A stretch of DNA of 64,000 nt from Macrostomum hystrix (taxonomy: Eukaryota; Animalia; Platyhelminthes), in assembly GCA_950097015.1 (NCBI GenBank), contig CATNEN010000029.1:6076001-6140000 (forward strand). Reading direction: 5' to 3'. A model generated the notes under the pieces. That model made no database searches, was not told the origin of the DNA, and saw only the letters and a program-made list of their open reading frames with translations. This document shows positions 1,570-60,410 of the stretch, piece by piece. Position 1 is the first letter of the stretch, and every line of letters begins with the position of its first letter. Position numbers and translations under genes: made by a program.

Positions 1570-2510
1570 AAGGGGACGATCTGGAGAATGGGACAAGGGG
1601 ACGATCTGGAGAATGGGACAAGGGGACGATCTGGAGAATGGGACAAGGGGACGATCTGGAAAATGGGACAAGGGGACGATCTGGAGAATGGGACAAGGGG
1701 ACGATCTGGAGAATGGGACAAGGGGACGATCTGGAGAATGGGACAAGGGGACGATCTGGAGAATGAGACAAGGGGACGATCTGGAGAATGAGACAAGGGG
1801 ACGATCTGGAGAATGGGACAAGGGGACGATCTGGAGAATGGGACAAGGAGACGATCTAGAGAATGGGACAAGGGGACGATCTAGAGAATGGGACAAGGGG
1901 ACGATCTAGAGAATGGGACAAGGGGACGATCTAGAGAATGGGACAAGGGGACGATCTAGAGAATGGGACAAGGGGACGATCTAGAGAATGCGACAAGGGG
2001 ACGATCTAGAGAATGGGACAAGGGGACGATCTAGAGAATTGGACAAGGGGACGATCTAGAGAATGGGACAAGGGGACGATCTAGAGAATGGGACAAGGGG
2101 GCGATCTAGAGAATGGGACAAGGGGACGATCTGGAGAATGAGACAAGGGGACGATCTAGAGAATGGGACAAGGGGACGATCTGGAGAATGGGACAAGGGG
2201 ACGATCTAGAGAATGGGACAAGGGGACGATCTAGAGAATGCGACAAGGGGACGATCTAGAGAATGGGACAAGGGGACGATCTAGACAATGGGACAAGGGG
2301 ACGATCTGGAGAATGGGACAAGGGGACGATCTGGAGAATGAGACAAGGGGACGATCTAGAGAATGGGACAAGGGGACGATCTAGAGAATGGGACAAGGGG
2401 ACGATCTGGAGAATGGGACAAGGGGACGATCTGGAGAATGGGACAAGGGGACGATCTGGAGAATGGGACAAGGGGACGATCTGAAGAATGGGACAAGGTT
2501 ACGATCTAGA
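1570..2510. repeat. 25-bp minisatellite (AAGGGGACGATCTGGAGAATGGGAC), ~37 copies
   Basis: Directly visible tandem array; ORFs called over it are repeat translations. Confidence 0.97.
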
Positions 2511-3122
2511 AGGAGGCCAAGGGAGGATCTAGAGAACAGGCATGAGAACGATCTGCTATAGAGAATAAGACAGGGAAAAATCTAGGGACTAGGACTATGT
2601 AAAAATAAGCCAACAGGAAATGTTCATTATTTGACGTCCGCTAACACAACCAGTTCTTAATGCAAACTTAACACTAGAACATCTAGTATTTCTTTCTAGC
2701 AATAAATCCAACAGAAAATATCAAAAAGAAGAATGAGACCTGAAGACACGTTACAAACTACAATTGCGAGTCAAATTTTGCAAAGGACAGATTTATATGA
2801 TAGCATTTACCAAACAGCTACATAATATAAGATAAATATATTCGCCAAAAGCGGAAAACACACTGCATTGAAATTACTTCGCGATAAAAAGCACTACATT
2901 CAATTTGGGGTACAAATTTTAGCTGCAACTATAACAAAAATCGGGAGTAGTACCAGATATATTACTATGCATGATCAGTAATATATTTTGTCTAACTGAA
3001 AACAAGCGAAACTTGAACAGATTCTCAACTCTAGAAGACTGGTAAAAAATTGATCAAGCGGACAAAAAATTTCTAGTTCAGTGTTGTTTGTGTCAGTAAA
3101 AAACCACCTAGCCAAGATCTGA

Positions 3123-16100: not shown

Positions 16101-19100
16101 CGCAGTGCTCACGAAAGATATTCCGACTAAGACAAAGAAGAACCAGAATGAAGCAGAGAATTACTAGAATTTCCAAGCGCCGCCTAAGACTGAAGAAGCG
16201 TTACGTTGTTGTGCGAAGAAAGGTTCGCCTTCAGATCATCAAGTTTAAGCGATTGAACAGACAAAAGCGAAGATTTTTGAGACGCGTGGTGAGAAGGAGG
16301 CTTGTTCGCCGTCGAACCCTTGTCCGCGTTGTTAGACATTCCAGGCGAGTGTTGCGACGCACTATCAGGCGAATGGTTTATAAACGAAAAGCGAGAGTTT
16401 CGAAGAAAATAAGGCCACGAGTCGTGATCCGAAAGCTAACTGGTCTGCATCGCAAGAGAACTGTTTCGAGAGTGGTAAGAAAATTCCACAGTTTGGCCAA
16501 GCGAGTAGCCACCGCTGCTCGCAGGAAGCTCGTGAGCCGAAGCAGAATCCTTAGAATTCAGAGGCGACGCATTGTACTAAGACGAAGGGTGAGAAAAATC
16601 AAGCAACGTGCAAGGATTCTGAAACGAAGAATCACAATTATCAAATTCCGTCGAAGAAAGCTAATAAAGCAGCTCAAGCTTGTCCAGTCTCGCAAATTAG
16701 CTGGACGAAAGACAATCAAAACACAAATAATTATCAAGCGGATTGTTAGAAAAATAGCTGTCTGCAGTCGACGCATACGAAGACTGCGAGTTCGAAGAGT
16801 TAGACTAACTAGACGCATTGTAAGGACCACGCGCAGACGCAGAGTCTTGCGATTCAGAGTGCGCACAATAAAGCGCAGAATTGTTAGGCAGGACCGTGTC
16901 GTAAGCCGTTTGTATAAAAAGATTCTAGTTAGAAATATCCGTTGGAAAGTTTTTGGCAAGAAGACTATGCGACGCATTATAAAAAGCAATCTGATTGTGA
17001 CTTCTCGAGCCAGCAAGCGTACAGTCGAACAGAAAAAGGTCATCAAGAAGAAAGTGCCTAGCAAGCTTAAGCCTAAAATCCTATTAAAAAAGAGTAAGAA
17101 GTTGAGAGTTGTTGCAAAACGAGCAGTGAAGGAACTAAACAATGTCAACAAGAGAGTCGAGCGCATAATTCGTCGTATGCTCGTCTCCAAGAGGCGAGTT
17201 GTTCACATTCAGAAACGCACCAGACACCTTAAGCGTAGAATTCAGCGCATCAGTCGCAGAAGAGTGATTGTCAAGAGATATTTAAATAAGATCAAGGCTA
17301 GACGAGTTGTGCTAATAAAACGTCTGAAAGTGCTTCAACAGAATAAGGTTGTGCAAAAAAAGAAGACAAGAAAGGTCGTAAGAGTTTCCGCTATCAGGAC
17401 GATTAGGAGGCTGACTCGACGAATTGCTAGGTACACAAAGCGCTTGCAGCGAGTTTCACGCAGAAATGTACAGCTCAAGGCGAAGATTCTTCGAATTTCA
17501 CGCAGACGCCAGCGGCTCGTAAAAAGAGTCTTGATCCTAAAGAAGAAAACTCAGATTAGAAAGGTACGATTCAATACGCTACTGCAACGATTCCAGCGAC
17601 GCATTATGAAGTACAAAGTTACCAACGTGAAGGTCATGCGCGTTGCAGTGAAGCGCGCCAAGATTCGACTTAACAAGACCATTAAGCTTAGGCGTCAAAA
17701 GCAGAAAATCAGCAAGCGTCTCATTCGCTCAAGAAAAGTGACCAGAAAAGTGAGAAAGTTGTTCCGAATAAACAGAAAGATTAATAGAAGGCGCGCTGTA
17801 AGACGGATTAAGAAAATCTACAAAAGAATTGTGCGCGCTAAAGTTAAAGCGGTGGCTTGCCGACAGAGGATGATTTTTATTCGGCAGCGAAGAATTCAGT
17901 TGAGAAGGCGCATTCACAGAATCAGAGATAGAAGCCAAAGGCTGAGGAGGCGCATCAGGACCGTAGTGAAACGTAGGAGAAAACTTATTAGGCGAATCAA
18001 GCACCTAAAAGCTAAGAAACTGTCATTCCGTCGGCTTTTGTCATCCAAAGCAAAGGCCAAAGTAGAAACAGTGAGAAGGATCAGCAAAATCGATTCTCGC
18101 ATTAAGCGCATAACCAACAAGCTGTCCGCTTGCACTGGGCGAATCGTCATACTCAAGAGACGTCGTGTTCAGCTAAAGGCCAGAATCTTGCGAATCTCAA
18201 CGCGCCAACATCGCCTTCGCCGCCGCTTCGTAACAATCAAACGAAGAACTCGTCGGCAGGAGCACAAGGTCAGGCGTCTTATTATAAGAAAACGGCGATT
18301 CACTAAGCGAGTATTAAACAAAAGACTTATTAGCCGCCGTACCATTTATAGAATTTCTGTTAAGACCCGCCGCATTGTGAAGCGCCTTGTTCGCCGAACT
18401 CGCAAGAGGTTTATTACCAGACGTTTGAACAGAACGCGCAGAGTGAGACGCCGACGGGTTATCGCCGCTGTGCGCTCAAAGCGAGTTGTTATTTCCGGAT
18501 TGAAAGTAGTTCTTCCGCGCCTTGTGTCATCGAGAAGGACTCCTCCACTTAAGCCAAGATTTAAGCGCAAGGTAATCCCTGTTTAAGAGGCTTCGTCAGA
18601 AACTACATCGAAGAAAAGTGAAGATTGCCCGTAAGTTGAACCCTCGCGTTTTGATTCGCAAGATTGCCCAGCGTCGCGTGAAGGTTCGTGCCTCTGTAAA
18701 CAAGGTTCTTGGTGTAAAGAAGGCACTAAAGGTGACAAAGACTGAAGTAGTTGCCAAGAAGATCCTACAGTCCAAACGGCCAGTGCCCGTTAAGAATCTC
18801 AAGCGACTGCAGGCCGCGCTGAAGCTAAAGCTTCAAAAGTTGAATCAGAAACTCGTGTCAGTTGCGCCAGCTTTCAGAAGGCTTGTTCAGAGAACAGAAT
18901 CGGCCTACGCAACAGATGAGAATACTTTGAATACGGAAATCACGAGCAGTCTTGTGCAGTCTCAGGAGGCCTATACGCAGGTACTGAATCAGCAGAAGTG
19001 GCTGTACAACACGGAATACCAGACTCTGGTTTCGGAAGATTACAAAACTGCCGAGGAAGGTGGGTGACTCAGAAATTTGTACAAGTGCCCTTGGCTTGCA

Positions 19101-22100
19101 TTAATCAAATCGACACGACTTTTTTCTTTCCAGAAATTGATCCGAGAACAAATAAATGGGTCGTGAAATCAACTGAAAGAGGTAAGCTTATCCTTCAACA
19201 AAAAAACTTAAACTTTGGCTGAAACATCGAGTCTCTTGTACTGAAAACTGAAAGTTGGCATGTTACCATCGCATGCAGTATGTCAATTAGCCGGGGCATC
19301 ATAAACTGTTAAACAGGCAAACATAGTTTGGGCAATCTGATTTACACTCAGAAACATGTTAAATCCCACACCTGAGCGAAACCCGACTTTTAGCTACCCA
19401 TGCCATGTCTCAATCAATTGCGCATATCGGGTTTAAATCGAGGGCTGGAGGGACAAGCTGCAGTTTGATTGTTGCGCAAGCATGGCGAGTGAATGAAAGT
19501 ACCTGTCTGAGCGGCTTACATTTACAAGCGTTGACTTCCAGTAGCACACAAGTATGCGGTTTAACATGTTTCTGATTGTAGTTAAGAGTAATTGTCGGGA
19601 TACTATTCGCGGCAATAAAAATTAATTTGCACCTGTTGAGATCAGAACGCGTGTGCCAAGAGTTTCTGACTGTATGATGAAAAGCGTGTCTTTGGTTTTA
19701 AATTTGCAGACTGGAGTCACTACAGCCTGGGCTGCTACAAGGACAGTGCGCAGCGGGATTTGAAGCACCTGGCAGAGAGCAGCGCAGCAATGAGCCTTTC
19801 TCGTTGCCGCAAGCTGTGCGTGGACCGCGGATATCCATTCTTCGGTGTGCAGAACTCAGTTGAGTGCTTCTGCGGCAGCTCTTACGGCAGCCATGGAGCC
19901 AGCCCGGTGAGCAGCTGCAATCTGCCGTGTCGTGGCGACCCGGCGCACATTTGCGGTGGACATTGGCACAACAGCATCTACTCAACTGGTCTCTCGGGTT
20001 AGTAGCCCTTATTTCGTGCAAGACATGGGGGTCGGTGGCAGAGCGGTAAACGCGTTTGCCTCTCGCACCAAGGTCCCTAAGTTCGATCCACGGCGAGGCC
20101 ACATTTATTTGGGGCGCAGACGCGGAGAGAAGGCTTGGAGCTTGTCGTGCAATTTACGCCCTTGAGGGCCAACCTTTTAGGCACAGTGAAGTGTACACTG
20201 CCTGTCGATGAGAAAGTCAGTGCAGATGTACACACCTGTGTGAGCGTATGCCTGCGTACAGTATTTGTGTGCATGTGTGCTCAGGAGTCAGCGAAATGGG
20301 CAGAATTGCCTCCTCGCTGGCTGCGGGTCTGGTGTCACCAAATGATGTCCCACTGCCCGCAGCCCTCCTGTGATTATTAATTATTAATAATAACTCGTGC
20401 GAGACATTACTCGTGGGTTCGCGGGGGCTGTAGACTGTAGTCTTAGTCCTGTCGACTGTAGACTGTAGTCTTAGTCCTGTAGACTGTAAACTGTAGTCTT
20501 AGTCCTGTAGACTGTAGACTGTAGACTGTTAGTCTTAGTCCTGCAGACTGTAGACTGTTAGTCTTAGTCCTGTAGTCTGTAGACTGTAGTCTTAGTCCTG
20601 TAGACTGTAGACTGTAGTCTTAGTCCTGTAGACTGTAGACTGTAGTCTTAGTCCTGTAGACTGTAGACTGTAGTCTTAGTCCTGTAGACTGTAGACTGTA
20701 GTCTTAGTCCTGTAGTCTGTAGACTGTTAGTCTTAGTCCTGTAGTCTGTAGACTGTAGTCTTAGTCCTGTATTCTGTAGACTGTAGTCGTAGTCCTGTAG
20801 TCTGTAGACTGTAGTCTTAGTCCTGTAGTCTGTAGACTGTTAGTCTTAGTCCTGTAGTCTGTAGACTGTAGTCTTAGTCCTGTAGACTGTAGACTGTAGT
20901 CTTAGTCCTGTAGACTGTAGACTGTAGTCTTAGTCCTGTAGACTGTAGACTGTAGTCTTAGTCCTGTAGACTGTAGACTGTAGTCTTAGTCCTGTAGACT
21001 GTAGACTGTAGTCTTAGTCCTGTAGTCTGTAGACTGTAGTCTTAGTCCTGTAGACTGTAGACTGTAGTCTTAGTCCTGTAGACTGTAGACTGTAGTCTTA
21101 GTCCTGTAGACTGTAGACTGTAGTCTTAGTCCTGTAGTCTGTAGACTATAGTCTTAGTCCTGTAGTCTGTAGACTGTAGTCTGCCGCAAGTAGTCTGTGG
21201 CCTGCAGCACAACAGATTTCAATCCTATTCTCTCACTGGCACTCGCTTGCTTTGCACATTGAATTCGGCAGGCTACAAACTTCTTAGTGTCGGCTGCTAC
21301 CATGACAAACCGATGCGCGACCTGCCACAGCTGGCCATCACCAGCGATAGCCTGACACTGAACAAGTGTTCCAAGGCCTGCAGCAAAATGCGCCGAAAAT
21401 ACTTTGGCGTGCAGAATGGCAGGGAGTGCTGGTGCGGCAACTCCTACGGTAGGTACGGCACAGCCGGATCGGACAGGTGCAACAAGCCCTGCGGCGGCAG
21501 CAAGGCGGACACTTGTGGCGGCGAATGGCTCAACAATATCTACAAGACCGGACTAGAGAGTTAGTTTTTTCTTTAATTCTAATTTTTGCTGGCCAAATAG
21601 CAATATACTTTTAAACTTATTGTATTTTGTAAACTGAATATAAATTTCAGCCGGAGGCATTGTTACCCGCGAGATTGCGAAAACCATCTTAAAGGATGGT
21701 GGTAAGAGCAGCAATCCTAGTTTAAACCTGACATTGATGTTTTTCATTAGCGCAGGAACAGTAAATTTGTCGCATTTTGTACTTTGACCTCAGGCTTCGG
21801 CTCTGGCAGCGTTTCTGAGTCTGTGTCTACAGAGGTTGTCGGTGAGTAATGCTGTGTTACTGCATCGAGACAGCTAATCTACTAGGCATATTAAGATCAG
21901 GTTTCGCCTCGTGCAGTATTGTATTGTAACTACTCTGACACACTATTTAGCCCCTTTTTTCCATTAACAAAAAGCCTTCTACAATTTTAGGGGAGCCTGA
22001 AGTTTCAACAACAACAACTGTGTTGCCAGGGACTCAAACTGGTAAACTTATCAACTATATTGGTGCCTTCTGCTTTCGTCTGAGTTTCTCTTTTGATTTT

Positions 22101-24947
22101 AAAGTAAAATACTAATCTAATCCATCTTCTAATATTTGTCAAATATTTCTAATACATTTAAGTGCGCAAGACTAGCCAAGTTATTCACAATCATAGTAAG
22201 TAATTTGATCAAGGGCTTGAATCAAATATACAACAGCATTTAACAACCACACATTTTGAATGCACGTTTGGCAATACACAAAACCATTCGATTAAACCTC
22301 CTTTTCAGGCCGACCCGTTGTGTCGTCAGTCACTAAAGTATTGCCTGCCGTGCAAACAGGTAGATGAAACGAGTTTTTATGGACTACATGGCACTTACAT
22401 TAGAAGTCATCGAGATGATCAATATGAATGCCACCCGGAACCGTTTCAGAACAAACCACACACCAAGTGATCCGAAGTGAAAGTAAGTTATATTATCCTC
22501 AACTATGAGATCCACAGACTGATGTGCCAATTCGATAAGCTGATTTGCTTTCTCCATTCTAATCGCTAGGTGGTCACGGCTCAGGAGGGTCTTACACGAA
22601 GGTGCTTCCAGGCAAAAGCAGTAAGGAGGTCCTCGTTGCTGGCAGTCTTGTGAGATTTCGCTGAGCGTTGAATTATGAGATAAAATAACACTGACTCTGG
22701 TAATTCTATTGTAGATGTGGTTAAGACCGTGAATCCTGATGGCTCCACTTCGTGGACTGAAACTTCTGAGTCCCAGGTGATAGCAGGTGAGCCTTTTCTA
22801 ATATTTCTTTCCAGTGTCTTGTGAATTGAGGTTGAAAGTTTTTAAGTATAAAGAGAAAAGCGAAAATCAACATTAATTTAGTTAAACGACGCGTTGCGCA
22901 CCACGGTGTGCATTCTTCAGGTTTATTTTTTAAGTGAAGAAAACGAGTAGAGATCGGAAGTGAATAAATAGGAAATTTTGGGGTGCAAATTTAATCAATA
23001 TTTTAAGAACATATTTGTTAGTCCGTAAGTCGCGAGGCAAAGTTTCTTCACTTCAAATAAACCTGAAGATGCACACTGCTGTGCGAAATGCGTCGTTTAA
23101 CTAAATTAATGTTGATTTTCGCTTTTCTCTTTATCCTACTTGCCAAGCGAGCAAGTTTAACTGAATTTTTTAAGTATGTTTTTATTACATTTTGCGTTAA
23201 TTGAGTACTGCATTTTTAAGGCTTTAGAATTCGTACTTGCATCGATCTGCGTCATTTGCATGCTTTTATTTAATAGGTGGAAGAATACGGAAAAGCTTGG
23301 AATTAATTTTTATTTATGCTAAACTTTTTGGTCATAAAATGTGCAGTCGTGATTTTAGCCTTGTTTTATAAACAAGCCTTTAAGTTGCCATATATAAAAC
23401 TTTTGCATCATAACGCTTAACTTATTTCCTATCTGGACTGTGTAAATTTTAGCCAGAAAACTACGCAAACTTTATAGAAGGGGCTCTATGTTCTTTAAGC
23501 TGCTTGATCAGGGTCGCATGGTAAATATGAGAGCTGTCCGCCGAAATATAGGACTAATGCTACAGTTTTAAACATAACAACGGATTTTAACAAAAACTTA
23601 GTTACTTCCCTGCATAGTCGCCAGCTCTATCAATACACTTCTGCCACCTCGTCATCTACTTGTTGAACGCCTCGGCATGGGCTGAAGTGGGCATGTGGTT
23701 TGTGACCCATCCCATGCGGTTTTTACCTGCTGATCGGTGTCAAATCTGCAACCGGAAATGCTGGATTTGACTATTGAGAACAGCCAAAATTCCACCGGTG
23801 TCAAATCAGGCCTTAGGCTGAGTGCGGCAAAGCCTAGACCTTGTGATATGCTCGTTGGTCCTCGCTGACACATGCGGGAGTGCATTGTCCTGATGCAGTA
23901 ACCAGCCTCTTTGAACCACACCAGGGTCGTTTTTCCTCTCGAAGCCTGGACTTTTTGTCGACAAAAGCATCATTCCTTTTCTTCGCCCACAGCCTACACA
24001 AAAACACTTTTTAGTTTAACGAGTTTTAGATTATGAAAGGGAGTTATAAAATTTGACGACAGCGGCTTGATAATAAATTTGCTTGCATCTTTGTGCTCCT
24101 ATTTTTGCCTATTGTACTTCCTGTAGTACACCAGCCACTCGACTGCACCAAACTTTCAGGCCGACCCGTTGTGTCGTCAGTCACTAAAGTATTGCCTGCC
24201 GTGCAAACAGGTAGATGAAACGAGTTTTTATGGACTACATGGCACTTACATTAGAAGTCATCGAGATGATCAATATGAATGCCACCCGGAACCGTTTCAG
24301 AACAAACCACACACCAAGTGATCCGAAGTGAAAGTAAGTTATATTATCCTCAACTATGAGATCCACAGACTGATGTGCCAATTCGATAAGCTGATTTGCT
24401 TTCTCCATTCTAATCGCTAGGTGGTCAAGGCTCGGGAGGGTCTTACACGAAGGTGCTTCCAGGCAAAAGCAGTAAGGAGGTCCTCGTTGCTGGCAGTCTT
24501 GTGAGATTTCGCTGAGCGTTGAATTATGAGATAAAATAACACTGACTCTGGTAATTCTATTGTAGATGTGGTTAAGACCGTGAATCCTGATGGCTCCACT
24601 TCGTGGACTGAAACTTCTGAGTCCCAGGTGATCGGAGGTGAGTATTCTTTTTGATTATGAAGTAGTTTTGTATATTTTTGTGGATGATTGGCGATTAGAT
24701 GGGCTTAATTTTCCAGTATTTCGAAGTTTTATAAGTTAAAGGGACAGAATTAAGGACTCAGAATTCTCATTAACGTGCTCAAGGCTTTAGAACTTCTGGC
24801 GTTGTCCAGTACATGAACTGCAAACTGATTCATTTTACTCCCAAGTTGGTTGAAAAACACTTGTACGTAGATCACATGTGGCTCAAATTCAGATTTAAGT
24901 GATAAAAACTCACTATTATTTCAGGTTCCGTCGTCCAGCAACCTTAA
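13195..24947 (+). CDS. Secreted giant Arg/Lys-rich protein with two WSC domains and micro-exon tail; exons 13195-13285, 13752-19059 (1-nt frame break near 18577), 19134-19181, 19710-19997, 21272-21559, 21651-21701, 21794-21841, 22309-22359, 22570-22620, 22715-22786, 24160-24210, 24421-24471, 24566-24637, 24925-24947
   Basis: Exon 1 encodes MKVCTLLLLLLALCGAASVVDGA (signal peptide) ending A|GTAAGT; the acceptor at 13751 is in phase with the 1630-aa open frame; WSC motifs LGCYKD..C..LC..GYPFFGVQN..ECFCG..C..PC.GD..CGG occur twice; all later exons are GT-AG, phase 1; TAA with overlapping AATAAA at 24945-24951. Confidence 0.8.
13412..13663 (-). mobile_element. tRNA-headed SINE, family A copy 1 (intron 1 of the KR-rich gene)
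   Basis: A-box TAGTGGTCAGAG and B-box GGTTCGTTCCC; the 3' body GGACTGAACAGCCGTACG...CTTCAGATGC..CACAA.AGCTG is shared with 62778-62985. Confidence 0.75.
14698..14940 (+). repeat. Coding 54-bp repeat (RVSRRRLTRRLSRRRSTR) x~4.3
   Basis: Visible at both DNA and protein level in the long ORF. Confidence 0.9.
15400..15720 (+). repeat. Coding 30-bp repeat (RRTGRRRVLV) x~10
   Basis: AGGCGCACTGGACGTCGAAGGGTACTTGTG repeated in frame. Confidence 0.9.
20027..20395 (+). mobile_element. tRNA-headed SINE, family B copy 1 (intronic)
   Basis: GGTGGCAGAGCGG A-box, GTTCGATCC B-box, ~370-bp body colinear with 42468-42833, (TTA/TAA)n tail. Confidence 0.85.
20428..21182. repeat. 28-bp minisatellite (GTCTTAGTCCTGTAGACTGTAGACTGTA) built from 7-bp subunits, between the WSC exons
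   Basis: Visible array; each unit is four related heptamers. Confidence 0.95.
22848..23134. mobile_element. MITE-like element with ~95-bp terminal inverted repeats
   Basis: ATAAAGAGAAAAGCGAAAATCAACATTAATTTAGTTAAACGACGC... is mirrored by ...GCGTCGTTTAACTAAATTAATGTTGATTTTCGCTTTTCTCTTTAT; no coding capacity. Confidence 0.85.
23640..23990 (-). pseudogene. Mariner (Tc1/mariner) transposase C-terminal remnant
   Basis: LLHQDNALPH in one frame, then LRPDLTPVEFWLFSIVKSSISGCRFDTDQQVKTA in another, resembling the mariner HDNA and YSPDLAPxDFxLF motifs; frameshifted. Confidence 0.8.
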
Positions 24948-25498
24948 TAAAAGAGATCCCGAGCGATAAAAAGGCTGCAAGCTTCAGCCAAATGACAAGT
25001 GTTCTAACTTGAACCATAGAGGTGGTGGGACCAATCTACTAACTTTTACTTTTCAAAACGCCAAATATACTGAAACATTTCAACGTGGTCAAGTAGTTTA
25101 CCTTTTTCAATCAAGGCATCGAAAAAACATGCTCATGCTTTAATATGCGCATTTTGTATTTACTTCTGTGCTCAGGGGCGACAGAAGATGTTACTAATAA
25201 TATGGAAAACTTTGACGATAGTATATATTTTAACGCCTGCAAAGCATGGGTATTATTGTTATTGTGCCATAGACATTTTTGCCCAAGCTACACTTTCAGA
25301 GTCAGAGACGGGGGTGTGGAGGCAGAGCCCCCACTTGGGGCGTGGGAGCGAAGCCCCCCACTCCCTACCATAGACTATTTTACTAGAAATTCAAATCGTA
25401 GACTGAGCCAAAAGATCTGCTCTCGCACTGCAGAGGAGTAGAGAATTGAAACTGAAAAACAGTTCTTAAAAAATTCTACATAGCATTCCACAGAGACA

Positions 25499-27864
25499 AT
25501 GATTAACTACGACGGTATTCTCGAAGTAGACATTGCTGGATTGTCAACCGAGGAATAGATTTTTTCACTCGTCAAACTGCTGGAGCCTGCTGGCTTGGCT
25601 CGGCGATCAGCACCGGAGTGCCAAAAAGGCCACCAGCAGATGGTCGTCGCCGGCAGCGATCAGGCACGTCGGGCGAGGTTGCTGGCAACAGCGACGACAG
25701 CGACGGGGCGGCGTCTGACGCGCCAGACAGGTCCAGGGCAGCCCTACAGCCTCGCAGCCCCGTCGACATCGAGATTGAGGACATCAACGGTGAGCGCGAC
25801 GAGAATGGCAGGCCGACAGCGGCAACCGGCAATGGCGAGCAGCGAGACGGCCCAAAGGCGGAGCCATCTGAGGCAAACGAGCAGGAGGCAATGGACAGCG
25901 ATGACCGCGATGCTCTGCAGGCACTGCTGGACTTCGAGGTGTCCACCGTTGCGCTGTCACATATAGCATCAGTCGCTGCAGATCCCCCACCGTCGGGCGC
26001 TGGTACAGAAATAAAGGAGGCCTCCAGCACGGTGCCGAAGCCGCCTCAAGTCGCGGCCGACCAACAACAGCAGCCGAATGTTGAGAAGGAGCTGGGGAGG
26101 CGGAGGTTTCGTTTCCAGCGGCTCGAAACGACTGCTCGTGCTGTTGCTGCTGCTGCCGACTGCTCCATTGTGGGCGCCATGGCGCCATCGCAGCCCGATG
26201 GCCGACGATCTGCAGTCGCCAAGACCACGCGTCTCAGCGTCCAGAATATCAGACGACGGGCACGTGGTGTCGCCTGGCACAGCGGCATTCGCAGCAGCGG
26301 TGGTGGCCGCCAGGAATGAGGCCAGCCAGTCCTTCCCTGTCGGCCAGGAGTGGTGGCGCCTCATGACACCGCAGCCGCTGCAGCAACACGAGCAGGCGCA
26401 GCTCGAGCGTCGTCCCTCGATGATGTCGTTCAGCTACAGCCCGCCGGCGTCTGCGGCACAGCTTATCCACTTCCTGCAGCAACAGCAGGGGGACAGCGAA
26501 GCGAGCGGGAGCGCGGTCGGCGGCGCGAGAGGACAAGGAGGCGGCCGAGGGGTGCGACGGCTGGGCCAAAATCCGCTGCTCAATACGGCAGCAGCACAGC
26601 AGCAGTTTACTGTGACGCGCTCCGTCAGCCGGCCGCTCGCAATGAACGGTGCTGCTCCTGTGGAGCGACTGCCCGAGGACAGCGGCATTCTGACAGGGCG
26701 CCGCTATTTGCACGTCTTCCACATCGACAACGTGCGCTTCGTCGGTGAGTCACTTGCTTTATTCTTAAGCTCTGAATCATATAGCCAGCTCGCCTCCACT
26801 GTTTCCATGCTGCCTACATAAACAGGTCGTGCCAAGGTATATCTGGGCGAGGCTCTGAAGGCACATTGTGTCGAGCTCGTCCTGGCGTCCAGCCCGGGCC
26901 TCTGCGTCGGCATGGACGAGTTCTGCGACCAGCGGCTAGTCGCTGACCCGTCGACGAGATGGAGCAACAACAACAGCAGCAGCAGCAGCAGCATAGCGAG
27001 TATCGGCCACACCGCACTCTGTCCGGCTTCGTGCGCCTGGAGACCAACGCGGCCGGCTGGCATCTATACGAGCTGCTGTTCAGCCTGCTGCCTGGCCGAG
27101 ACGAGGGGCGCGGCTTTGTGGTGCCCGACCGGACCACCCTGACGCTGTGCGGCGTCCGCTCGCCAGACAGTGTGCTGCGGAGCCTGACGCAGCACGACGG
27201 CTACCCGCTGCTGATCGGGGTCGGCGCCACACAGTGCAGCATGCTGGTGCAAGCAACTCGGTGGGCGCTGTCCTAACTGCTGACTGCCAACCTGCCCGAC
27301 CAGACCGACGGCTTCCAGTTGGCACACCAGCAGATGCGCGCCACGTTGCTGGGGGTTTTCCGAGACGTGCAGCGCCAGCGCCGGATTCGCAGGGAGCAGC
27401 TCGCCGGCTGTTCCGCATGCTCCACCGAGGCTGCCGACAACCGGAACCTGTGCCCGATTCGAGAGGCCGTCTGCACAACCCTTCGCCACCAGTCGGGCGT
27501 TGTGTACCTGTACGGGCCGTCGGGAGTCGGCAAGACCACCGCCGTCGAGCGCAACCTGGGCCAGGAGCGCGTCTTCTGCCCGGTCATCAAGCGCTTCGGC
27601 GGGAACGACTTTATGTTTGACGGCCTGGACACCGCGCGCCACTCCGTCATCCTTCTGGACGAAGTGCGGCCGCACATGTTCGAGGGCGGCGACCTTGAGA
27701 CCACGCTGTTGCGCCTGCTGAACGGCAACAGCTTCCTGGTCAACGCCAAGCACCAGGCGCACGTCTACCTGGATTGGGGCCAGCGGCTGGTGATCATGGC
27801 CGGCCACGCCTCACCTGACCGGCTGACGTGCAGCGGCGCCTGCGCAACCGCCCAGGATGATTAA
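25499..27864 (+). pseudogene. Decayed CRESS-DNA-virus-like Rep (degenerate HUH region + SF3 helicase) with long low-complexity N-terminus and an 81-nt intron (26745-26825)
   Basis: VVYLYGPSGVGKTT (Walker A, 27514-27537), MFDG..SVILLDE (Walker B), LLRLLNG..VNAK, LVIMAG (motif C region); upstream RRYLHVFHIDN, RPHRTLSGFVRL and SVLRSLTQHD could be degenerate RCR motifs I-III; in-frame TAA at 27274-27276 and frameshifts near 25555, 26100 and 26948. Confidence 0.7.
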
Positions 27865-28559
27865 TTGATGAGGCCGCCATATGCCCGTCTGTCTATCGTG
27901 AAATTATTTCACCAATGCGACAATCCTACCCGAATTTTATCTCCACCACCATCTCCAACACCACCGGGTTAGTAGATGTGGCTGGCTGGGCTATAAAGAT
28001 TGAGCATATTGTATAATTGTGGTAAAAATTGAATAATTTTGAATAATTATATAGTTTTAAGTATTGTGCGCGCACTACGAACTGTACCTTTTGCAAATTA
28101 AAGTATCCACTTGGCTACTATGAGTAGATCAGTTCGCAAATTTTAGAATTAGAATTTAGAATTGCGGAGGAAGTGATTTTTTGACACTGTTTAATGTTTC
28201 CCTTCGAAAAAGCGACAAAGCCGAAGCCACAGTTCCGTTTCTGCTTATATACCGTTTATAATACACAGTGGCATATTAATGAAGGGGGTGGGACTAAATG
28301 CGTGTCCGAAGGATTAAATCGATTGCTCTATGGTCATACTTTTCGCCATAGACTACTTGAAAATCGGCCTGAAACGCTTGGATTTTGCCACTGTGGATTA
28401 AATCGAATGCTCGAAGGATCAAATGGTCTGCAAAATGCTATAATAATTGTAACGAGCTCATCAAAAGGCATCAAAATCACATGGTAGAATTAAACTGAAA
28501 CCGAATTCCTATTCAATCTATATTAACTATACACTGCACACACACACTAATCAAGCATA

Positions 28560-29816
28560 ACAGTAATAGCCTATTAAGCGCGCAAAAAAACTGTTTCTAG
28601 CACACAATAAATGTGGCGGTAAATATAAATTTTCAGCCACGCGCACATCGATCAAACCCTGCTGTGCTGCTGCCTCGACCTCCTTTTGTGCGGCCGATCC
28701 GGCGACGACTCCCGTGGGCTCTTCTCCTCTGAAGGCAGCTGCGTCGTCGTCTATGGGCGGCATTTCGGCAATGCAGGACTGCGTCCGCCTGCTGGGTCGC
28801 TCGAATGGCAGTCGTCATCGTCGGCTCGCCCTGCTGCAGAGCCTCGCCACTGCCAGCCAGCAGGCTGCTGAGTCTCTGGGTCGATGGGCGGCATAATGGG
28901 CGGCATCTGTTCGGCAGCTGCTGCAGTCGACGATGATGTCACCGCAAACCGGCGGACTATGGCGCGGCTGCGAATTACGCGCCCATCTCCGTGGCCATCT
29001 GCGCATTGTGGCCTTAATTGTACCGGATGACAGCGGCAGATGTGCCATGTGCACTGGCGAACACATCTAGCTGCTCCGGCTCCATCATTAGCACAACGGC
29101 GCAGAGGGTGCGACGTCAGTGCGTGACCACGTAGTGCCGGCCGAGGACTCGCTGACCGCCTGCACTAGTCATCCGGCTCATCGCCGACTGGCTATAGATG
29201 CCGCCGAACACGTCCAGGAACACCGTGCTCGTCTTCGAATTCGGTCGAGCAGCGAGCGACGGCACGACGGATGTACTCGTCGTGCATTCGCATCAAGGCC
29301 TCGAAGAATTGATCGGGCAGCACCTTGTGCGGCACTTCACTCAGCGGCAGGAAAAGGTGCGAATGGCCAGCCAGATCGGCAGCAAACGGCCCACTCTCCA
29401 CATCTGCACCCTGGTGCTGGCGGAATAGCTGCTTATGGTCGGATGCTGCGTTCCGCCGAACCGACCTATCGACCAAGTGTCGCCGGCAGATGTAGATCCA
29501 CGGCAGGAGTCGCAAGGGCTGCTCAATGCTGTAGTAGAACAGCATTTCCTGCACTATCCGCCCGCAGACAGACCATCCGGCGACTGAAAGCGCCATCGTC
29601 TACCACATCCTCCGTGGTGGTGATGCCATCTACAACTGCTGCCTACATGCTCCACTCGCCGTCTACGGGCAGCGAAGTCCAGCTGTGCCGTTGGAGCATG
29701 GCAAAAAAGCGGTCACTGCGGGCGAAAACGGCATACACCTCGTCCACATTGACGTAGGTGTCCACTGTCCATGAACGCCACCTGCCGCTCGTTGTGGCCC
29801 AGCTTGTAGACGGCCT
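28560..29816 (-). pseudogene. Decayed GC-rich orphan coding region convergent with the Rep-like gene
   Basis: Strong acceptor TTTTCTCTGCAG at ~29817-29828 followed by protein-like stretches in changing frames (AVYKLGHNERQVAFMD; VDTYVNVDEVYAVF; QEMLFYYSIEQPLRLLPWIYICRRHL; FFEALMRMHDEYIRR; VFLDVFGGIY) broken by stops; family not recognised. Confidence 0.45.
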
Positions 29817-30525
29817 GCAGAGAAAATGTTATTACAGAGCTTAGCTATAACTACACGTGGGCACTGGGCAGCATGTTATCAGATAGAACCAGCGCCGCTT
29901 GTGATCATCAATGCAGCTGTGCTATAATTGTGCAGCTAGCTCACCTCACTGGATGGCTCGTACGCTCTGCTTTGAAAAAGAGAAGCAGTGCGTCTGCTTC
30001 AACCAATCGATAATTTTACCCCTATGGTCATAGACTAAAGACGATCGAAGTCGTCTCTCTTTCATCTGCAGGCCCGTCTGGCTGGCTCGGCACTGCTTTT
30101 GAGGGAGGAAGATCGAGTTGGGGTGGTGGGGTTTGCTGTTCACTGGAAAATCGAATGTCTGAGCTTTTGAGGGGATGGCTAAAGCATAAACAAATTTAGT
30201 ATATAGTGCAGGGCACGCTTCGTTTTCGCACTTTGGGCTCTCTCCCTCCAGAGTGAGCCCCGTCTTAGTAGGAAATTAGCAGAAGCAGCTAGCAGCAGCA
30301 GCAGCAGCAAGAAATAACAAACAAAATATTAGCTAACTATTAATCGATTTTCTCACATGCACTCTCTATACATACTTGTAATGCGATGAACTCAATACAT
30401 ATATATAATTGATAACGAGACTACCGATACTGACAAAGGTTGACTCTCACTCTGCTCTTTTAATTTGCTGCATGGTATTTACGGCTTTGCGCTTTGCTTT
30501 AATTCATTCTTAAACTCAGAGGATC

Positions 30526-30858
30526 ATGGCCGAATACGATGGACACGCCAGCGCCGTCCGCAGGGCTATCTATCCATGGCGGTATAGCCGCCATCGTAGC
30601 CGGTTGCGGTCGATGGCCGGAATAACAGCAGCCATGCTAGTGATCGCCGAGTATCCTGACGAGGTCGCTGCCATCCAGGCGACACCTGGCGTATCGATTG
30701 TTGAGATGCAAGAATGCGCCGACTATGTATTGCAGGGCCCGCCAACGCAGCAGCGTGTACGGGACCTGCTGGCAGCTCAAAACATCGAGCTGCAAGTCGG
30801 GTGCCTAAAGTGGTGGCGGATGGCAGGCAATCCGCCACATGAAAATGTAGAAACGTGA
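30526..30858 (+). CDS. Intronless 110-aa hypothetical protein
   Basis: ATG in good context (ATCATGG), GC-rich against AT-rich flanks, globular-looking composition; no recognised family. Confidence 0.45.
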   Translation: MAEYDGHASAVRRAIYPWRYSRHRSRLRSMAGITAAMLVIAEYPDEVAAIQATPGVSIVEMQECADYVLQGPPTQQRVRDLLAAQNIELQVGCLKWWRMAGNPPHENVET

Positions 30859-30959
30859 TATATAATTTATATAATGCGCCGTATTTCACATTCTGTGGTT
30901 TCAAAGTCCGAGGACATTCTAACGGTAGACTAATGAACGGTTTTAACGGTTTTCTTATT

Positions 30960-31650
30960 TACAAAAAATCAGATCGCCCATTCGGACGTTTAAATGATTT
31001 AAAGGGCTCGGAATTCAGACTGAGCCATAGAGAAAAAGATTCCATACTAAGAAGAAGCCCATGACAAGTCCTGTAAAAACGCTTGTAAAAACCGGTGAAG
31101 CAGTCACGACGCAGAATAAAGCAAATGTTAAAAGCGGTGACAAGCGTCAAGTCTAGAATTCCGTATGTGCTGCTTAAACGGATGCTCAGCGTTAGTAGGC
31201 TAGTCAAGTATAAGAAACGGTACAGGTCTTTGAAGCATCATATCACTGTAATGCAGACGAGAAGGCTCAAGTTGGCGCGTCGCATCTTGAAACTGAAACA
31301 GCATCGCAAGAAACTGTTGCTTCGGCAAGTCAAGCTACAGAGGTCACGTCTGGTCACTTACAAGGAGAGCTGTAAGTCCTCCACATGCAGCGTCTGCATT
31401 GAAAGCCGCTCATCTGGTTAGAATACGCAGGCGCATCGAGTTACGATTAAAGAGAATTGACAAGAGAATTTCGACAAGCGCAGCACGACTACACTAACTG
31501 AAACAAAGGCGGGCTACGTTGAGCACAAGAATCGTTGCATCCTCCAATAGACTGCGAGATATTCATCGACGCATAGTGAATGGCAAAAAGCGAGTTCGAG
31601 AATTGAACACTTTAAGAATCGTCAGATTTAGGCCATCGCCAAGCAATCGG
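30960..31650 (+). pseudogene. Decayed fragment of an Arg/Lys-rich coiled-coil protein, likely paralogue of the 13.2-24.9 kb gene
   Basis: KQSRRRIKQMLK..QTRRLKLARRILKLKQHRKKL..LVRIRRRIELRLKRIDKRI..LKQRRATLSTRIV, interrupted by several stops and a frameshift; ends at a donor-like CGG|GTGAGT. Confidence 0.6.
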
Positions 31651-31959: not shown

Positions 31960-33087
31960 TCAAGTGCTTTGGTACCCGCCGCGCCGCATAAATAGACGTC
32001 GAAGCCAGTCACAGCAGAATGTCGCGCCGTCGACAATCAAACCCGGCAGCGCCAGCCAGAAAGTGGTGTTTGGCACGGCGCTAGTGTTGACACCTTTTTT
32101 TAGTGCAAATGCGTTTACAGTGAAGCCGCCAACCAGGTAGACAAAGACGCTGACAAAGAGAATTATGAGCAGAATGTCGCCGCCACTCATTCCCCTGCCG
32201 CCGCCGCCACCGTCGGGCAAGCTCTCAACTTCGCAGGCATGTTTGGAAGTAAGCCTGCTCGAATAGATTACAGCGCTTGAACCGTCTGGAATGCCATCAT
32301 CCTGGGGCTCAAAGGCATCCGTCTCGGACTGAGAGCACACCATGCAGTGACACTTTGGACAGTCGGTTGAGACTGGCTTCGGCATCACGGCTTGTATACT
32401 TTATAAATAAGCCATTGTCCTGAGCATAGTCGAACTCAGCCGATTCTTGCGTGCCCAGTGCAAATTCCTTTAGTCAGTTGAAATTTAAATTGAAAAAAAA
32501 ATTTGTTTGAAAAAACTTTTAGAATCGATACTGAAAAAAACACAATATGCACTGCACTTTAGACGCAACTTCGAGCTCCACATCTGCTATCGAATTACTT
32601 TAGTGACTTGACGAAGCCATATCATATAGTTCTCTTATATTCTTTGCTACTGTCTATTATGACTCTTCCTTGTTTTCTGTTCTACAATTCACTTTTGCAG
32701 GTGAAAGAGTGACCACCTAAAAACTAAAGAGTTCTTTCCTGGAATTCTTACCGATCAATGCTCTATACGAATGGTTAAAAATTTCAAAATTTCAAAATTA
32801 ATTTTTTTGAGACTGCAACATTGCCAGCGCCCTTGCACTGAAAACCAAAGCACGGATTGAATGAGTAGACCTAATAGCCTGCTGGTCCTCTCCACCCGTT
32901 TGAAATGATAACCGTCTCGGCTGGCCAACGGCGTCAAATCGATGTACTTTCCAGACTCTGTCTGGCACTGGCAGCTGCTGATTTTCTTAGCGCACTTCAC
33001 CTGCTGTGCGATAGCTAGAGGCAGCGTTGCAAGCAAGAGGCAGCTGGCTGCGAACAGTAGGAGGGTGCCTTTTTGCTGAGTGAGCAT
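31960..33087 (-). CDS. CD-MPR/ATG27-like MRH-domain type I membrane protein (two frame disruptions; pseudogene or assembly error)
   Basis: Signal peptide, SCQC..YIDLTPL, VYSFNPC, LGTQESAEF, LTSKHAC, TM GGDILLIILFVSVFVYLVGG, tail PNTTFWLALPGLIVDG, typical of the M6PR/ATG27 family. Confidence 0.75.
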
Positions 33088-33524: not shown

Positions 33525-36500
33525 TGTTGTATTCTTGAAGTAACGAATACAGAGATTCCGATTGTAGTGTTGGTAAATGTAAGTATAGCGCCGAAAGGAG
33601 CACTCGGCAGTCGACTGGATAAGCGTGTATTTGTAACAGCAGTATTATTAAATACTGGAAAGGTCTTGAGTGTGTGCACCGCGCGGGGGTTTCTATTTAT
33701 AGCCTGGGGAGCGAGTGGGAGAACTTTCTAGAAAGTTCTCATAGATAGCCCGCGGGGGAGGCGCAGAGAAGATTCTGGAAACAACAGAGTGTTATAACAA
33801 GTGGTAGAAAGTTCTAGAAAACTATTTACGGAATTATCGTAACGAAACCCACAACACCTCCCCACCAAAACTGTGAGTACAGCTGATAGAAAGTCTATAA
33901 GTCCATTTGTAGCCGTGGCTTTCGCTGCCTAGCCGACCGTCGTGGATTATCTGGTCCGTAGGGCGGCGGGTGTTGGACTTGGTCCGGCGCTCGCCATCCT
34001 GGAGGCCTGGGTCGAGATCCTGGATGTGCCACCGCTGGTGTGGCCGGCAGCATCAGGTGGCCAGCCGTTTCGTTTTGTTGAGTCGGCAGTGATCCTGGCT
34101 CGCCGTCTTCCGCGGACACGTGTCGCGGTTGAAGCTGGTCGAAGTGCCGTCGCCACACCGGGCCGCTTGGGACAACCTTGACGTTGACGCTGCGGCTGCC
34201 GTGCCGCTTGGTGACCACTGCCGGAACCCAGCGGCCTTCCTTCTCGCGGCGTGGTCCGTAGTAGCGAGCGTAGACCGGATCTCCGACGTTGTAGCCTTCT
34301 CGGACGCGAGACACCTTTTTCCGAGCTCTGGACTCTTCGGCCTGCTTGACTTGGCGATCCTGGGCGAGATGGGCTGGAGATGGCAGCAGAGTATCAATCT
34401 GCGTCCTGATCTGCCGGCCATTTAGGAGTTCGCTCGGAGAGTAGCCGTTGACCGCAGGAGTCCGTCGGTACTGCATCAGGAACTGCTGTAGCGCCCTGGC
34501 AGGTGGCAGGCTGGATTTCTTCAGGGCCTTCTTGAAGGTCTGAACCAGTCGTTCGGCCGCTCCGTTTGTTGCAGGATGATACGGAGCTCCTGTGAGGTGC
34601 GCGATGCCGTGTTCGCGACACCAAGCTTGAAACTCCTCAGCCATGAATGCCGCTGCATTGTCTGTGACGATGGCGTGAGGGTAGCCGAAGTGGGCGAAGT
34701 CTTCTTCCAGAAGCTCGATCGTTGCCCGCGTTGACATGGATTGCGTCGGGTGTATGCACGGGTACTTCGAGTAGGCGTCCGTGAGCACTAGCCAGTTGGT
34801 GCCGAGGAAGTTGACTGCGTGATCCAGATGTAGGCGACTCCAAGGCTTCTCAGGCATCATCCACGGATGGACGGCGGCCTTTGGCGGATGATTTTGGTGC
34901 TCAGCACAGCTGTGGCAGCCGTGGCACAGGTGCTCGACGTCGTCGTCGATGTTCGGCCAGTAGACTGCCGATCGAGCCAGCTGCTTCATCCTCTGTATTC
35001 CAAAGTGTCCGAGGTGGAGGATTTTCAGCACCTCATTCCGGAGGTTCCGAGGAATCACAAGACGACAGCCATGCAGAAGACATCCGTTGCAGCAGGACAG
35101 CGAATCTTTGACCTTCCGCAGGCGGGCCAGCTCAGCGTCCTCGTCTCGTCCGATTGGCGGCCAACCTTCTCGACAGTAGCGCATGGCGGTGGAGATGACT
35201 GGGTCCCTCGATGATTCCTTGGCTACGGCTGAGGCGTCAGCCGGCCGGATCTGCAGGCTCAGGACCTTGATCGCACAGACCATGTCGAAGTCGGCTGTGC
35301 TCTCCTCCCCGTCGAAGTCTAGGTCGTCTCCGACTGGCAGGCGACTCAGGGCGTCCGCATTTCCGTGACTCTTCGTCTGGCGGTACTCGATTTCGTAGGT
35401 GAAATTGTGGAGCAGGTTCGCCCAACGAGCCAGTCGGTTTGCCGCCATCACTGGTGTCTCCTTCTCGGGCCCGAATAGAGAAATCAACGGCTTATGGTCC
35501 GTGACCAGGATGAACTTGCGGTTGAACAAGTATTGGAAAAACTTCTTTAGGCCGAAGATGATTGAAAGGGCTTCCTTCTGAATCTGAGGATAGCGGCGCT
35601 GAGCATCCGTCAGAGACTTTGAAGCGTTGGCGATCGGCCGCTCGCTACCATCCGGGTAGCGGTGGAACAGGACGGCGCCGATCCCGACGTTGGATGCGTC
35701 GCAGGAGAGCCCGAGAGGGAGGTCGGCATTGTAGTGGACCAGCACGTTGTCCGACGAGAGCTCCTCCTTGATCTGTTCGAAGGCCCGCTGCTCCGCGTCG
35801 CCCCATGTCCATGGTGCGTCCTTCCTGGTGAGTCGGTACAGCGGCTCAGAGATCGTGGCCATGCTTGGCGGCAGAAACTTTGCGTAGAACTGGACCGAGC
35901 CGAGGAATGACCGGAGGCTGGACACGTCCTTTGGTGGAGGCATTTCGCGGACAGCGTCCACCTTGGTTCCCTTGGCGATGCCTTCTTTCGACAGTACATA
36001 GCCAAGGTACTCGATGCTGGGCATGGCGAATTTGCACTTCTCCCGTCGGCAGCGAAGTCCCTTGTCAGAAAGGCGTTGGAAAAGCCGGCGTAGGTTTGCG
36101 AGATGCTCATCAGCGGTCGCGCCGCCGACCAGGTAGTCGTCCAAGTAGAAAACGACTCCGGGCAGATCACCGGCTACCATTTCCATGATGAACTGGAACT
36201 CACCCACTGCAGACTTCGGGCCGAAAGCGAGCCGCTTCTGAAGAAGCACACCCCGGTGGGTGCTCAGTGCCAGGCGCCTCTGACTCATCGGTCCCAACTC
36301 GATCTGGTTGTAGGCGTCGGCCAGATCTACCTTTGAGAAGCAGTAGCTGCCTCCCAGCTTCTGTAGCAGTTCCTCTGGGAGGGGCAGCGGGTGACGGTTG
36401 TCTTCCAGCTGCGGGTTGATAGTGCACGAGTAGTCTCCGCAGACTCGCAGTTTCGGCTGCTCTGAGCCGGTCGAGGGCTTTCGCACGGGGACCACGGGCG

Positions 36501-55226: not shown

Positions 55227-55366
55227 ACCGGACGGCCTGAGTCTGATGGCCTGAAGCGGACGGCCTGAAGCGGACGGTCTGAGTCTGATGGCTTGAAGCG
55301 GACGGCATGAAGCGGATGGCCTGAAGCGGACGGTCTGAGTCTGATGGCTTGAAGCGGACGGCATGA
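55227..55366. repeat. Short degenerate 15-16-bp repeat (GAAGCGGACGGCCTGA) just after the ARID2 stop
   Basis: Visible degenerate copies in the presumed 3' UTR. Confidence 0.75.
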
Positions 55367-60270: not shown

Positions 60271-60410
60271 CTGTTTCACATTGTTAGAAGCGCGAATTTT
60301 TTTGTTGTTATCTGTAAATATCCGCGCAAAACTTGACCATCGCAGGACCTTCGTGTTCCCTTCCCTTCGGTGATCAGAGTTAAAAATATCGATCAAGAGA
60401 CTCAATCCTA

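What the first reader, a model, noticed from the sequence alone, without database searches (positions are those of the whole stretch)
25499..27864. Intron-containing CRESS-like Rep/SF3 helicase with a host-style low-complexity N-terminus
Seen: clear SF3 motifs (YLYGPSGVGKT, FDG..ILLDE, LLRLLNG..VNAK) preceded in the same frame, across one TAA, by a segment with candidate degenerate RCR motifs (LHVFHIDN; PHRTLSGFVRL; VLRSLTQHD where YxxK is expected). An 81-nt GT-AG intron (GTGAGT...AACAG) joins in phase, and ~400 codons of Q/A/E-rich sequence lie upstream. Known: HUH+SF3 Reps define CRESS DNA viruses, whereas Helitrons use PIF1 helicases and Replitrons lack a helicase. Inference: an endogenised ssDNA-virus gene that acquired host features (intron, polyQ) before decaying, or a member of an undescribed Rep-SF3 transposon family.
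Basis: partly seen in the sequence, partly recalled or inferred. Interest (0 to 1): 0.85.

Follow-up and report, generated by a model that had tools for sequence, protein, structure and literature searches.

The report
Broken, spliced virus-derived helicase gene
A broken but still spliced gene, likely in a flatworm, encodes a helicase like those of small circular DNA viruses; its DNA-cutting part is likely long dead, so it is probably a leftover copy of a virus-derived gene family that settled in animal genomes, not a working virus or a self-moving transposon.

Summary
The SF3 helicase and the 81-nt GT-AG intron are real: contigs of 4 of 4 laid runs (one study) skip exactly 26745-26825. The gene is not one frame, though: about seven breaks, and the perfectly matching contigs carry those they cover. 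Closest relatives are two Macrostomum lignano proteins (67%, 39%) and unnamed metagenomic proteins. Its helicase groups (98/95) with seven of them, and (97/96) with an intact HUH+SF3 Rep (P0015). Viral HUH profiles do not detect the upstream segment directly. It links to HUH only through a bridge protein, P0008, and in that alignment both proteins lack the HUH histidine pair and YxxK. The clade adds conserved cysteines around the ATPase. Diverged copies, an internally deleted copy, a shared leader and clustered CATAG motifs suggest a mobile multicopy family. No capsid, origin nonamer, long inverted ends or target duplication were found. Verdict: a pseudogene of a nuclease-dead, Rep-derived SF3 family in eukaryote genomes, analogous to poxvirus apvRep or HHV-6 U94. 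It is a new variant of a known kind, not an autonomous Rep-SF3 transposon on present evidence.

The parts
25267..25375 (+). Left flank: two CCATAGAC motifs around two GC-rich hairpins; repeated elsewhere in the genome; other copies lack 25306-25439
   Evidence: DNA fold -13.4 kcal/mol for 25300-25385; loose ends at 25229, 25267, 25319; joint 25305-25440
25440..25583 (+). Leader and first ~28 codons, shared with a different, more abundant transcript; TAG at 25556-25558
   Evidence: loose ends behind 25583 in X1, X3, X4 (depth ~95-98 in X3 and X4); a diverged X1 contig has other sequence before 25582
25499..26744 (+). Exon 1 coding-like stretch: low-complexity D/E/Q/A/R-rich region in three frame segments, ending in the motif-I-like LHVFHIDN (26708-26731)
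   Evidence: codon-position GC pattern switches frame; no Pfam, PHROG or NCBIfam match of note
26745..26825 (+). 81-nt phase-1 GT-AG intron, spliced
   Evidence: skipped in contigs of 4 of 4 runs; X2 contig matches 25497-26743 + 26825-26956 with 0 differences
26826..27273 (+). Degenerate HUH-derived domain and start of the oligomerisation region: LCVGMDEF (26900-26923), frame change near 26945, polyQ, motif II position T-L-S, motif III position S-x-x-Q; ends at TAA 27274
   Evidence: aligns with P0008 N-terminus (0 of 1000 shuffles; motif III block 2 of 20000), which aligns with the intact HUH domain of P0015 (0 of 500); not detected by viral HUH profiles
27277..27816 (+). Helical region, CxxC...C cluster (27409-27420 onward) and SF3 ATPase: Walker A 27514-27537, Walker B 27649-27663, B' 27739-27756, motif C position VIMAGH 27790-27807
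27822..27860 (+). Arginine-finger-like segment (QRRL) in another frame, cut short; a diverged expressed copy continues past 27848 with codons absent here
   Evidence: loose end in X2 at 27848
28162..28442 (.). Right flank: repeat shared with other loci, holding an inverted motif pair CTCTATGG-12 nt-CCATAGAC (28326-28353)
   Evidence: (loose ends at 28162, 28169, 28295, 28318, 28442)
28550..29830 (-). Second, convergent, similarly decayed GC-rich gene of unknown family, with diverged copies; possibly part of the same array
   Evidence: no hit in Pfam, PHROG or NCBIfam, nor in PDB for its main ORF; diverged contigs in X1, X2, X5
30020..30035 (.). Second inverted CTATGG/CATAGAC motif pair beyond the second gene

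Best explanation
This is a broken but still spliced copy of a multicopy gene family, likely of a Macrostomum-like flatworm, whose SF3 helicase likely descends from the replication protein (Rep) of a CRESS-type ssDNA replicon and whose nicking domain was likely inactivated long before this copy decayed. Intact family members would be ATP-driven ring DNA translocases with a non-cutting DNA-binding domain and predicted zinc-binding cysteines. Unable to nick, they would be spread as cargo or helper of a DNA mobile element bounded by CATAG-type ends rather than by their own rolling-circle activity. Shown: motifs, splicing, breaks, diverged and deleted copies, clade with an intact Rep. Inferred: host identity, early loss of nicking, zinc binding, mode of spread.
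For: SF3: a profile of 14 geminivirus-like viral Rep helicases scores the window at E 4e-7 over profile positions 7-93, circovirus-like 1e-4, parvovirus-pattern set 0.05 (872 targets). For the model of relative P0008, the first 12 listed PDB Foldseek rows are all SF3 helicases (best E 7e-4), and 53 BFVD hits reach E<=0.001, the named ones being Reps, NS1 and other SF3-bearing viral proteins. The Atlas neighbours of P0002 include Cressdnaviricota, Rotifera and PF00910 clusters at 0.94-0.96. Rep link: careful tree of 39 rows puts window + 7 relatives at 98/95, and these with P0011, P0014, P0015 at 97/96. P0015 has an intact HUH domain (E 1e-7 to a 43-sequence viral HUH profile) and matches viral Rep L010 (Gemini_AL1 E 2e-17) over 345 columns. 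Window N-region vs P0008: 0 of 1000 shuffles; motif III block, in a register fixed by a downstream anchor, 2 of 20000; P0008 vs P0015: 0 of 500. Dead nuclease: T-L-S and S-x-x-Q here, E-I-H and W-x-x-S in P0008, against H-L-H and Y-x-x-K in P0015. Multicopy and mobile signs: two M. lignano relatives, ~91% identical expressed copies, one internally deleted copy joining ~26950 to ~27731, shared leader and flanks; 9 of 16 window CCATAG/CTATGG hits lie in 25.0-31.1 kb (post hoc binomial 4e-6). GC3 0.83-0.88 in the conserved part.
Against: Viral HUH profiles do not detect the window segment (80 of 500 and 31 of 500 shuffles as high) or P0008 (12 and 39 of 500); hhalign gave probability ~0.1%; direct alignment to P0015 is not significant (122 of 1000 for the whole segment, 19 of 1000 for the 3' part). 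Only two sequences cover the nuclease region and their substitutions differ, so separate decay is not excluded. The PDB sequence-profile search ranks the cellular AAA+ Rix7 (E 1e-7) above a CRESS Rep (E 0.003). Best Pfam hits are generic AAA; PF00910 scores 18 bits, below its 21.5 cut-off. The tree has no cellular AAA+ outgroup and its query rows were chosen by similarity. No TIR beyond 7-11 columns and no TSD in 23 end pairs, and no transposase was seen nearby, so the mobile-carrier step is unproven. The four runs come from one study and are listed as 'DNA?' by guess.
Confidence: 0.55

Rival explanations
1. Domesticated host gene family: a Rep-derived helicase was co-opted long ago as a cellular DNA motor, and this copy is a duplicated pseudogene.
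For: Spliced intron, host-like GC3, long low-complexity N-terminus. Cysteines, Walker motifs and the C-terminal HxxxxCxGxC are conserved across relatives 30-70% identical. P0009, P0010 and P0013 all leave the family alignment at 'VS' just after Walker B, as a shared intron donor would cause (inferred, no DNA seen). Captured Reps with dead nuclease under purifying selection are known (PMC10193959, passages).
Against: No full-length intact member was found. P0004 sits in a mixed gene model. An internally deleted copy and repeated flanks point to mobility. Relatives are sparse singletons.
Confidence: 0.2
2. Simple endogenous CRESS virus: a virus with an active Rep integrated here and lost its catalytic residues only as this copy decayed.
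For: Clade with intact Rep P0015; decayed Rep copies are common in eukaryote genomes (PMC3198968, passages); a convergent second gene resembles an ambisense layout.
Against: No NANTATTAC within 15 kb of the gene. No similarity of the 24.9-31.7 kb region to 312 viral loci at E<=0.01 (weak, as the helicase itself was not hit). Copies differ by only ~9% while all catalytic positions are changed. P0008 lacks them too. The ~410-codon N-terminus is unlike a compact viral Rep.
Confidence: 0.15
3. Autonomous Rep-SF3 rolling-circle transposon, moved by its own HUH nuclease.
For: Multicopy, deleted derivative, intron, hairpins and clustered terminal-like motifs.
Against: HUH and YxxK are absent in the two sequences that cover the region; no intact copy was found.
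Confidence: 0.07
4. Divergent cellular AAA+ ATPase with an unrelated N-terminus.
For: Top Pfam hits AAA_16/AAA_22; top PDB profile hit Rix7.
Against: Fold hits are SF3; compact A-B-B'-C spacing of about 100 residues; bridge to an intact HUH Rep.
Confidence: 0.03

Closest known systems
CRESS-DNA virus Rep (Cressdnaviricota; HUH + oligomerisation domain + SF3), and endogenous Rep-like genes (Liu et al. 2011, PMC3198968, passages read)
   Same: Domain order, SF3 motifs, clade with an intact Rep (P0015), decayed multicopy state in a eukaryote genome.
   Different: Catalytic HUH and YxxK positions changed; motif C Asn replaced; added cysteine clusters; long low-complexity N-terminus; intron inside the HUH-derived region; no capsid or origin nonamer found; placement among viral families unresolved.
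Avipoxvirus apvRep and HHV-6 U94 (PMC10193959, passages read)
   Same: Captured Rep with inactivated endonuclease motifs and conserved Walker A/B, expressed.
   Different: Those sit in large DNA viruses; this is a spliced gene in an animal nuclear genome, and this copy is a pseudogene.
Polyomavirus large T / papillomavirus E1 (inactivated HUH + SF3; PMC6668415, passage read)
   Same: Architecture of a non-cutting HUH-derived domain before an SF3 motor; E1 is the top Foldseek PDB row for P0008.
   Different: The helicase sequence is CRESS-like. The spacing from cysteines to Walker A is ~35 residues, far shorter than in large T (recalled). A likeness of design, not membership.
Parvovirus-like repeats PIVE (planarian) and DENSOV_HM (Hydra) (PMC3198968, passages read)
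   Same: SF3-encoding virus-derived repeats in lower animals, including flatworms.
   Different: No Parvo_NS1 match; the parvovirus-pattern SF3 profile hits only Walker A.
Replitrons and Helitrons (PMC10288648, passages read)
   Same: Eukaryotic, intron-bearing, HUH-related.
   Different: Replitrons have an active Y1 and no helicase; Helitrons have Y2 plus an SF1B helicase. Neither fits.

Membership tests
SF3 helicase | Walker A, Walker B and B' within about 100 residues | tested here: met
   27514-27756; viral SF3 profile E 4e-7
SF3 helicase | Motif C with Asn | tested here: not met
   VIMAGH here and AGH in P0002-P0005; Asn kept in P0015 and P0011
SF3 helicase | Arginine finger | tested here: met
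   QRRL present but out of frame in this copy; in frame in P0002, P0003
SF3 helicase | SF3 fold | tested here: met
   Tested on relative P0008 (pLDDT 58): first 12 listed PDB rows are SF3, best E 7e-4. The P0002 model (pLDDT 46) gave nothing significant
CRESS-DNA virus Rep | N-terminal domain homologous to HUH | tested here: inconclusive
   Not detected directly; supported through P0008 to P0015
CRESS-DNA virus Rep | Motif II HUH/HUQ | tested here: not met
   T-L-S at the aligned position
CRESS-DNA virus Rep | Motif III YxxK | tested here: not met
   S-x-x-Q at the aligned position
CRESS-DNA virus (endogenous genome) | Capsid gene beside Rep | tested here: inconclusive
   Neighbouring gene has no match in any library tried; it was not folded
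CRESS-DNA virus (endogenous genome) | Stem-loop with NANTATTAC nonamer | tested here: not met
   7 matches in the window, none between 1328 and 42825; other nonamers not tested
Replitron | Active Y1 HUH/HUQ Rep without helicase | tested here: not met
   Fused SF3, no catalytic Tyr (definition)
Helitron | Y2 Rep fused to SF1B (PIF1) helicase | tested here: not met
   No PIF1 or Helitron Pfam match
Parvovirus-like repeats (PIVE, DENSOV_HM) | Parvo_NS1-type helicase | tested here: not met
   No PF01057; profile hit limited to Walker A, E 0.05
TIR DNA transposon cargo (CATAG ends; P-like by recall only) | Terminal inverted repeats and target-site duplication | tested here: inconclusive
   Motif clustering real but only 7-11 matching columns and no TSD in 23 pairs; true ends unknown without the genome
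Any mobile element | Dispersed copies with shared ends at different sites | not testable with these tools
   No genome held; contigs show diverged and deleted copies only

The most novel reading that the evidence does not exclude
An undescribed lineage of intron-bearing, nuclease-dead, zinc-decorated Rep helicases lives in the nuclear genomes of several eukaryote groups and travels in arrays of CATAG-bounded one-gene cassettes: a large-T-like DNA motor evolved independently from a CRESS Rep and serving a new kind of composite mobile element, or the host.
Probability: 0.25. Interest if true: 0.78.

Novelty: new variant of a known kind. Interest (0 to 1): 0.5.

Why it matters
Endogenous Rep fragments are common and this copy is dead. 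What is worth following is the clade: Rep-derived helicases that kept the motor, apparently lost nicking, and gained introns and cysteine clusters. If intact members exist, they would show in animal nuclei the same step (nuclease off, helicase on) that produced polyoma/papillomavirus initiators, U94 and apvRep, in a genus open to RNAi and transgenesis. I found no description of this family in the paper searches (listings, with passages of five papers read). Repbase and subscription journals were not searchable, and supplements were not read.

Tried and rejected
No genome held, so copy number, synteny and ends could not be mapped. No RNA holder listed by record; the runs are judged cDNA-like from polyA ends, adaptor letters and four GT-AG joints in the neighbouring host gene. 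Assembly error as the cause of the breaks: rejected for those covered, since X2 matches 25497-26956 (spliced) and X1 matches 27001-28202 with 0 differences and 0 gaps; 26957-27000 is not bridged in these (X4 spans it with 6 differences and 4 gap letters). Related-locus scans: viral contigs gave only P-loop matches or nothing; metagenome contigs 0 of 447; plasmids none. phmmer against PDB gave nothing significant. The AlphaFold model of P0002 was too poor. The N-domain of P0008 was below pLDDT 50, so the HUH fold is untested; VIA-align best Z 5.8 is uninformative. The last homologue search returned only known rows. Rfam: two chance-level hits. CATAG-N-ATCG is not enriched window-wide (69 of 100 shuffles), though 5 of 6 hits lie at this locus. 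The P-element end consensus is recalled; a search for it found 0 papers, and one search gave nothing usable. The PEVE paper was not held. The second tree dropped 20 of 59 rows (7 long or half-empty, 13 circovirus-like for time); the first, quick tree with all 59 gave 95 and 90 SH-aLRT for the same two groups. An HUH-like reading of the second gene (GHSHLF) was considered; neither HUH profile nor any library supports it.

Full report
Observation. The helicase ORF 27277-27864 carries GPSGVGKT, ILLDE and VNAKHQ, and is preceded in frame across TAA 27274 by the segment with PHRTLSGFVRL and LRSLTQHD. The intron 26745-26825 is 81 nt, GT-AG and phase 1. The gene is not one frame. Translation and the codon-position GC pattern show a TAG at 25556, frame changes near 25600-25640, 26250-26310, 26945 and 27817, the TAA, and a truncated end. 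LHVFHIDN lies in a different frame from the helicase.

Expression. Five runs hold the stretch or part of it. Four were laid on 24000-30000 and four on 25420-28320. They are listed as 'DNA?' by guess but show polyA ends and GT-AG joints in the neighbouring host gene, so I read them as cDNA. In one search, 4 of 4 skip exactly the intron; all four belong to one study. An X2 contig matches 25497-26956 (spliced) and an X1 contig matches 27001-28202 with no difference, so the breaks they cover are real and transcribed. Contigs cannot give level or ends.

Copies. X1 holds a second copy about 91% identical. X4 holds a diverged copy that joins about 26950 to about 27731 and keeps intron-like sequence. 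X2 shows a copy that continues past 27848 with codons absent here. The leader 25440-25583 is shared with another, more abundant transcript, and 28162-28442 with other loci. CCATAG/CTATGG hexamers cluster here (9 of 16 in 6.1 kb, noticed post hoc), in inverted pairs at 28326-28353 and 30020-30035. No long TIR, TSD or NANTATTAC was found.

Relatives. One search found 2 proteins among 1505 candidates: M. lignano P0002 (67%) and metagenomic P0003 (51%). One search added M. lignano P0004 (39% to P0002). The host is therefore inferred to be a Macrostomum-like flatworm; no genome is held. The full-library search with P0002 gave 13 proteins at E<=0.001, the ten checked all singletons without useful names. 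Most of the close group share cysteines before the ATPase (CxxC...C where the stretch is covered), and those reaching the end share HxxxxCxGxC after it; zinc binding is inferred. Motif C Asn is replaced by His in the Macrostomum group.

Is it SF3? Pfam is ambiguous: AAA_16 E 4e-5, PF00910 E 0.004, below cut-off. A PDB profile search ranks Rix7 above a CRESS Rep. Against that, profiles from viral Rep helicases score the window at E 4e-7 and 1e-4 across Walker A to B'. The P0008 model finds SF3 helicases first in PDB and BFVD, and the Atlas places P0002 by Cressdnaviricota and PF00910 clusters. I accept SF3.

Is the upstream part HUH? Directly, no: profiles of 43 geminivirus-like and 90 circovirus-like HUH domains do not pick it out. 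Indirectly, yes. Read with X at each break, it aligns with the N-terminus of P0008 better than 1000 of 1000 shuffles, and a 20-residue block around motif III, in a register fixed by a downstream anchor, beats all but 2 of 20000. P0008 aligns with the HUH domain of P0015 (0 of 500). P0015 is an intact Rep (E 1e-7 to the viral HUH profile) related to a Gemini_AL1-positive viral Rep. The helicase tree joins the window, its seven closest relatives and P0015's group (98/95 and 97/96); the position among viral families is unresolved, and there is no cellular outgroup. In this alignment both the window and P0008 lack the metal-binding histidine pair and YxxK, which PMC6668415 (passage) gives as essential for nicking.

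Mechanism. This copy makes no full-length protein. The family it comes from most likely encodes a ring-forming ATP-driven DNA translocase with a non-cutting, Rep-derived DNA-binding domain (inferred). It cannot start rolling-circle transposition itself, so its spread is best explained by carriage in, or service to, a DNA mobile element with CATAG-type ends (inferred; carrier not found). Domestication is the main rival. It is supported by the intron, codon pattern and conserved motor motifs, and by three relatives that leave the alignment at the same 'VS' after Walker B, as a shared intron would cause (no DNA seen).

Comparison. Decayed and expressed endogenous Rep genes, and parvovirus-like repeats in planarians and Hydra, are known (PMC3198968, passages). 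Captured Reps with dead nuclease and kept helicase are known from avipoxviruses and HHV-6 (PMC10193959, passages). Replitrons and Helitrons differ in helicase and catalytic residues (PMC10288648, passages). Some CRESS Reps are predicted to be spliced (PMC6186406, passages). Supplements were not read and may list related endogenous elements.

Verdict. Real, virus-derived, spliced and dead. It works like apvRep/U94 rather than like a CRESS virus or Replitron, and fails membership of both. New variant of a known kind; interest 0.5, higher if the cassette-borne or domesticated clade is confirmed.

Noticed in passing
window 28550-29830 (-): Second decayed GC-rich gene of no known family, convergent with the helicase gene, with diverged expressed copies in three runs including one of another study.
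   Followed up: partly
window 25014-31032, also 40786: CCATAGAS occurs 7 times in 6 kb (9 in the window; 3.5 expected window-wide), in inverted pairs between genes, suggesting an array of one-gene units; further ORFs at 30514-30858 and 31089-31421 follow such motifs.
   Followed up: partly
window 33525-38630: Full-length gypsy-type LTR retrotransposon on the minus strand: 1374-codon ORF (CCHC, protease, RT, RNase H, integrase), 332-nt LTRs 100% identical, so very recent.
   Followed up: no
window 22303-22791 and 24154-24642: 489-nt duplication at 99% holding several exons of a highly expressed spliced host gene that ends with polyA near 25127; contigs show a joint from 24632 back to 24157.
   Followed up: no
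window 22845-23137: About 300-nt imperfect palindrome (MITE-like) between the duplicated exon blocks.
   Followed up: no
window 13643-18586 (+): 1647-codon stop-free frame with internal 27/54- and 30-nt repeats and no Pfam, PHROG or NCBIfam match.
   Followed up: no
window 31960-32400 (-), 41665-42489, 46927-47577, 62940-63590: Host exons: ATG27/mannose-6-phosphate receptor, RRM, ARID, carboxylesterase.
   Followed up: no
window 1570-7376, 20428-21182, 47552-61237: Many long tandem arrays with 16-44 nt periods.
   Followed up: no
P0015 (no locus): Intact HUH+SF3 Rep that Pfam does not recognise by any Rep family; possibly an unclassified CRESS or endogenous lineage.
   Followed up: partly
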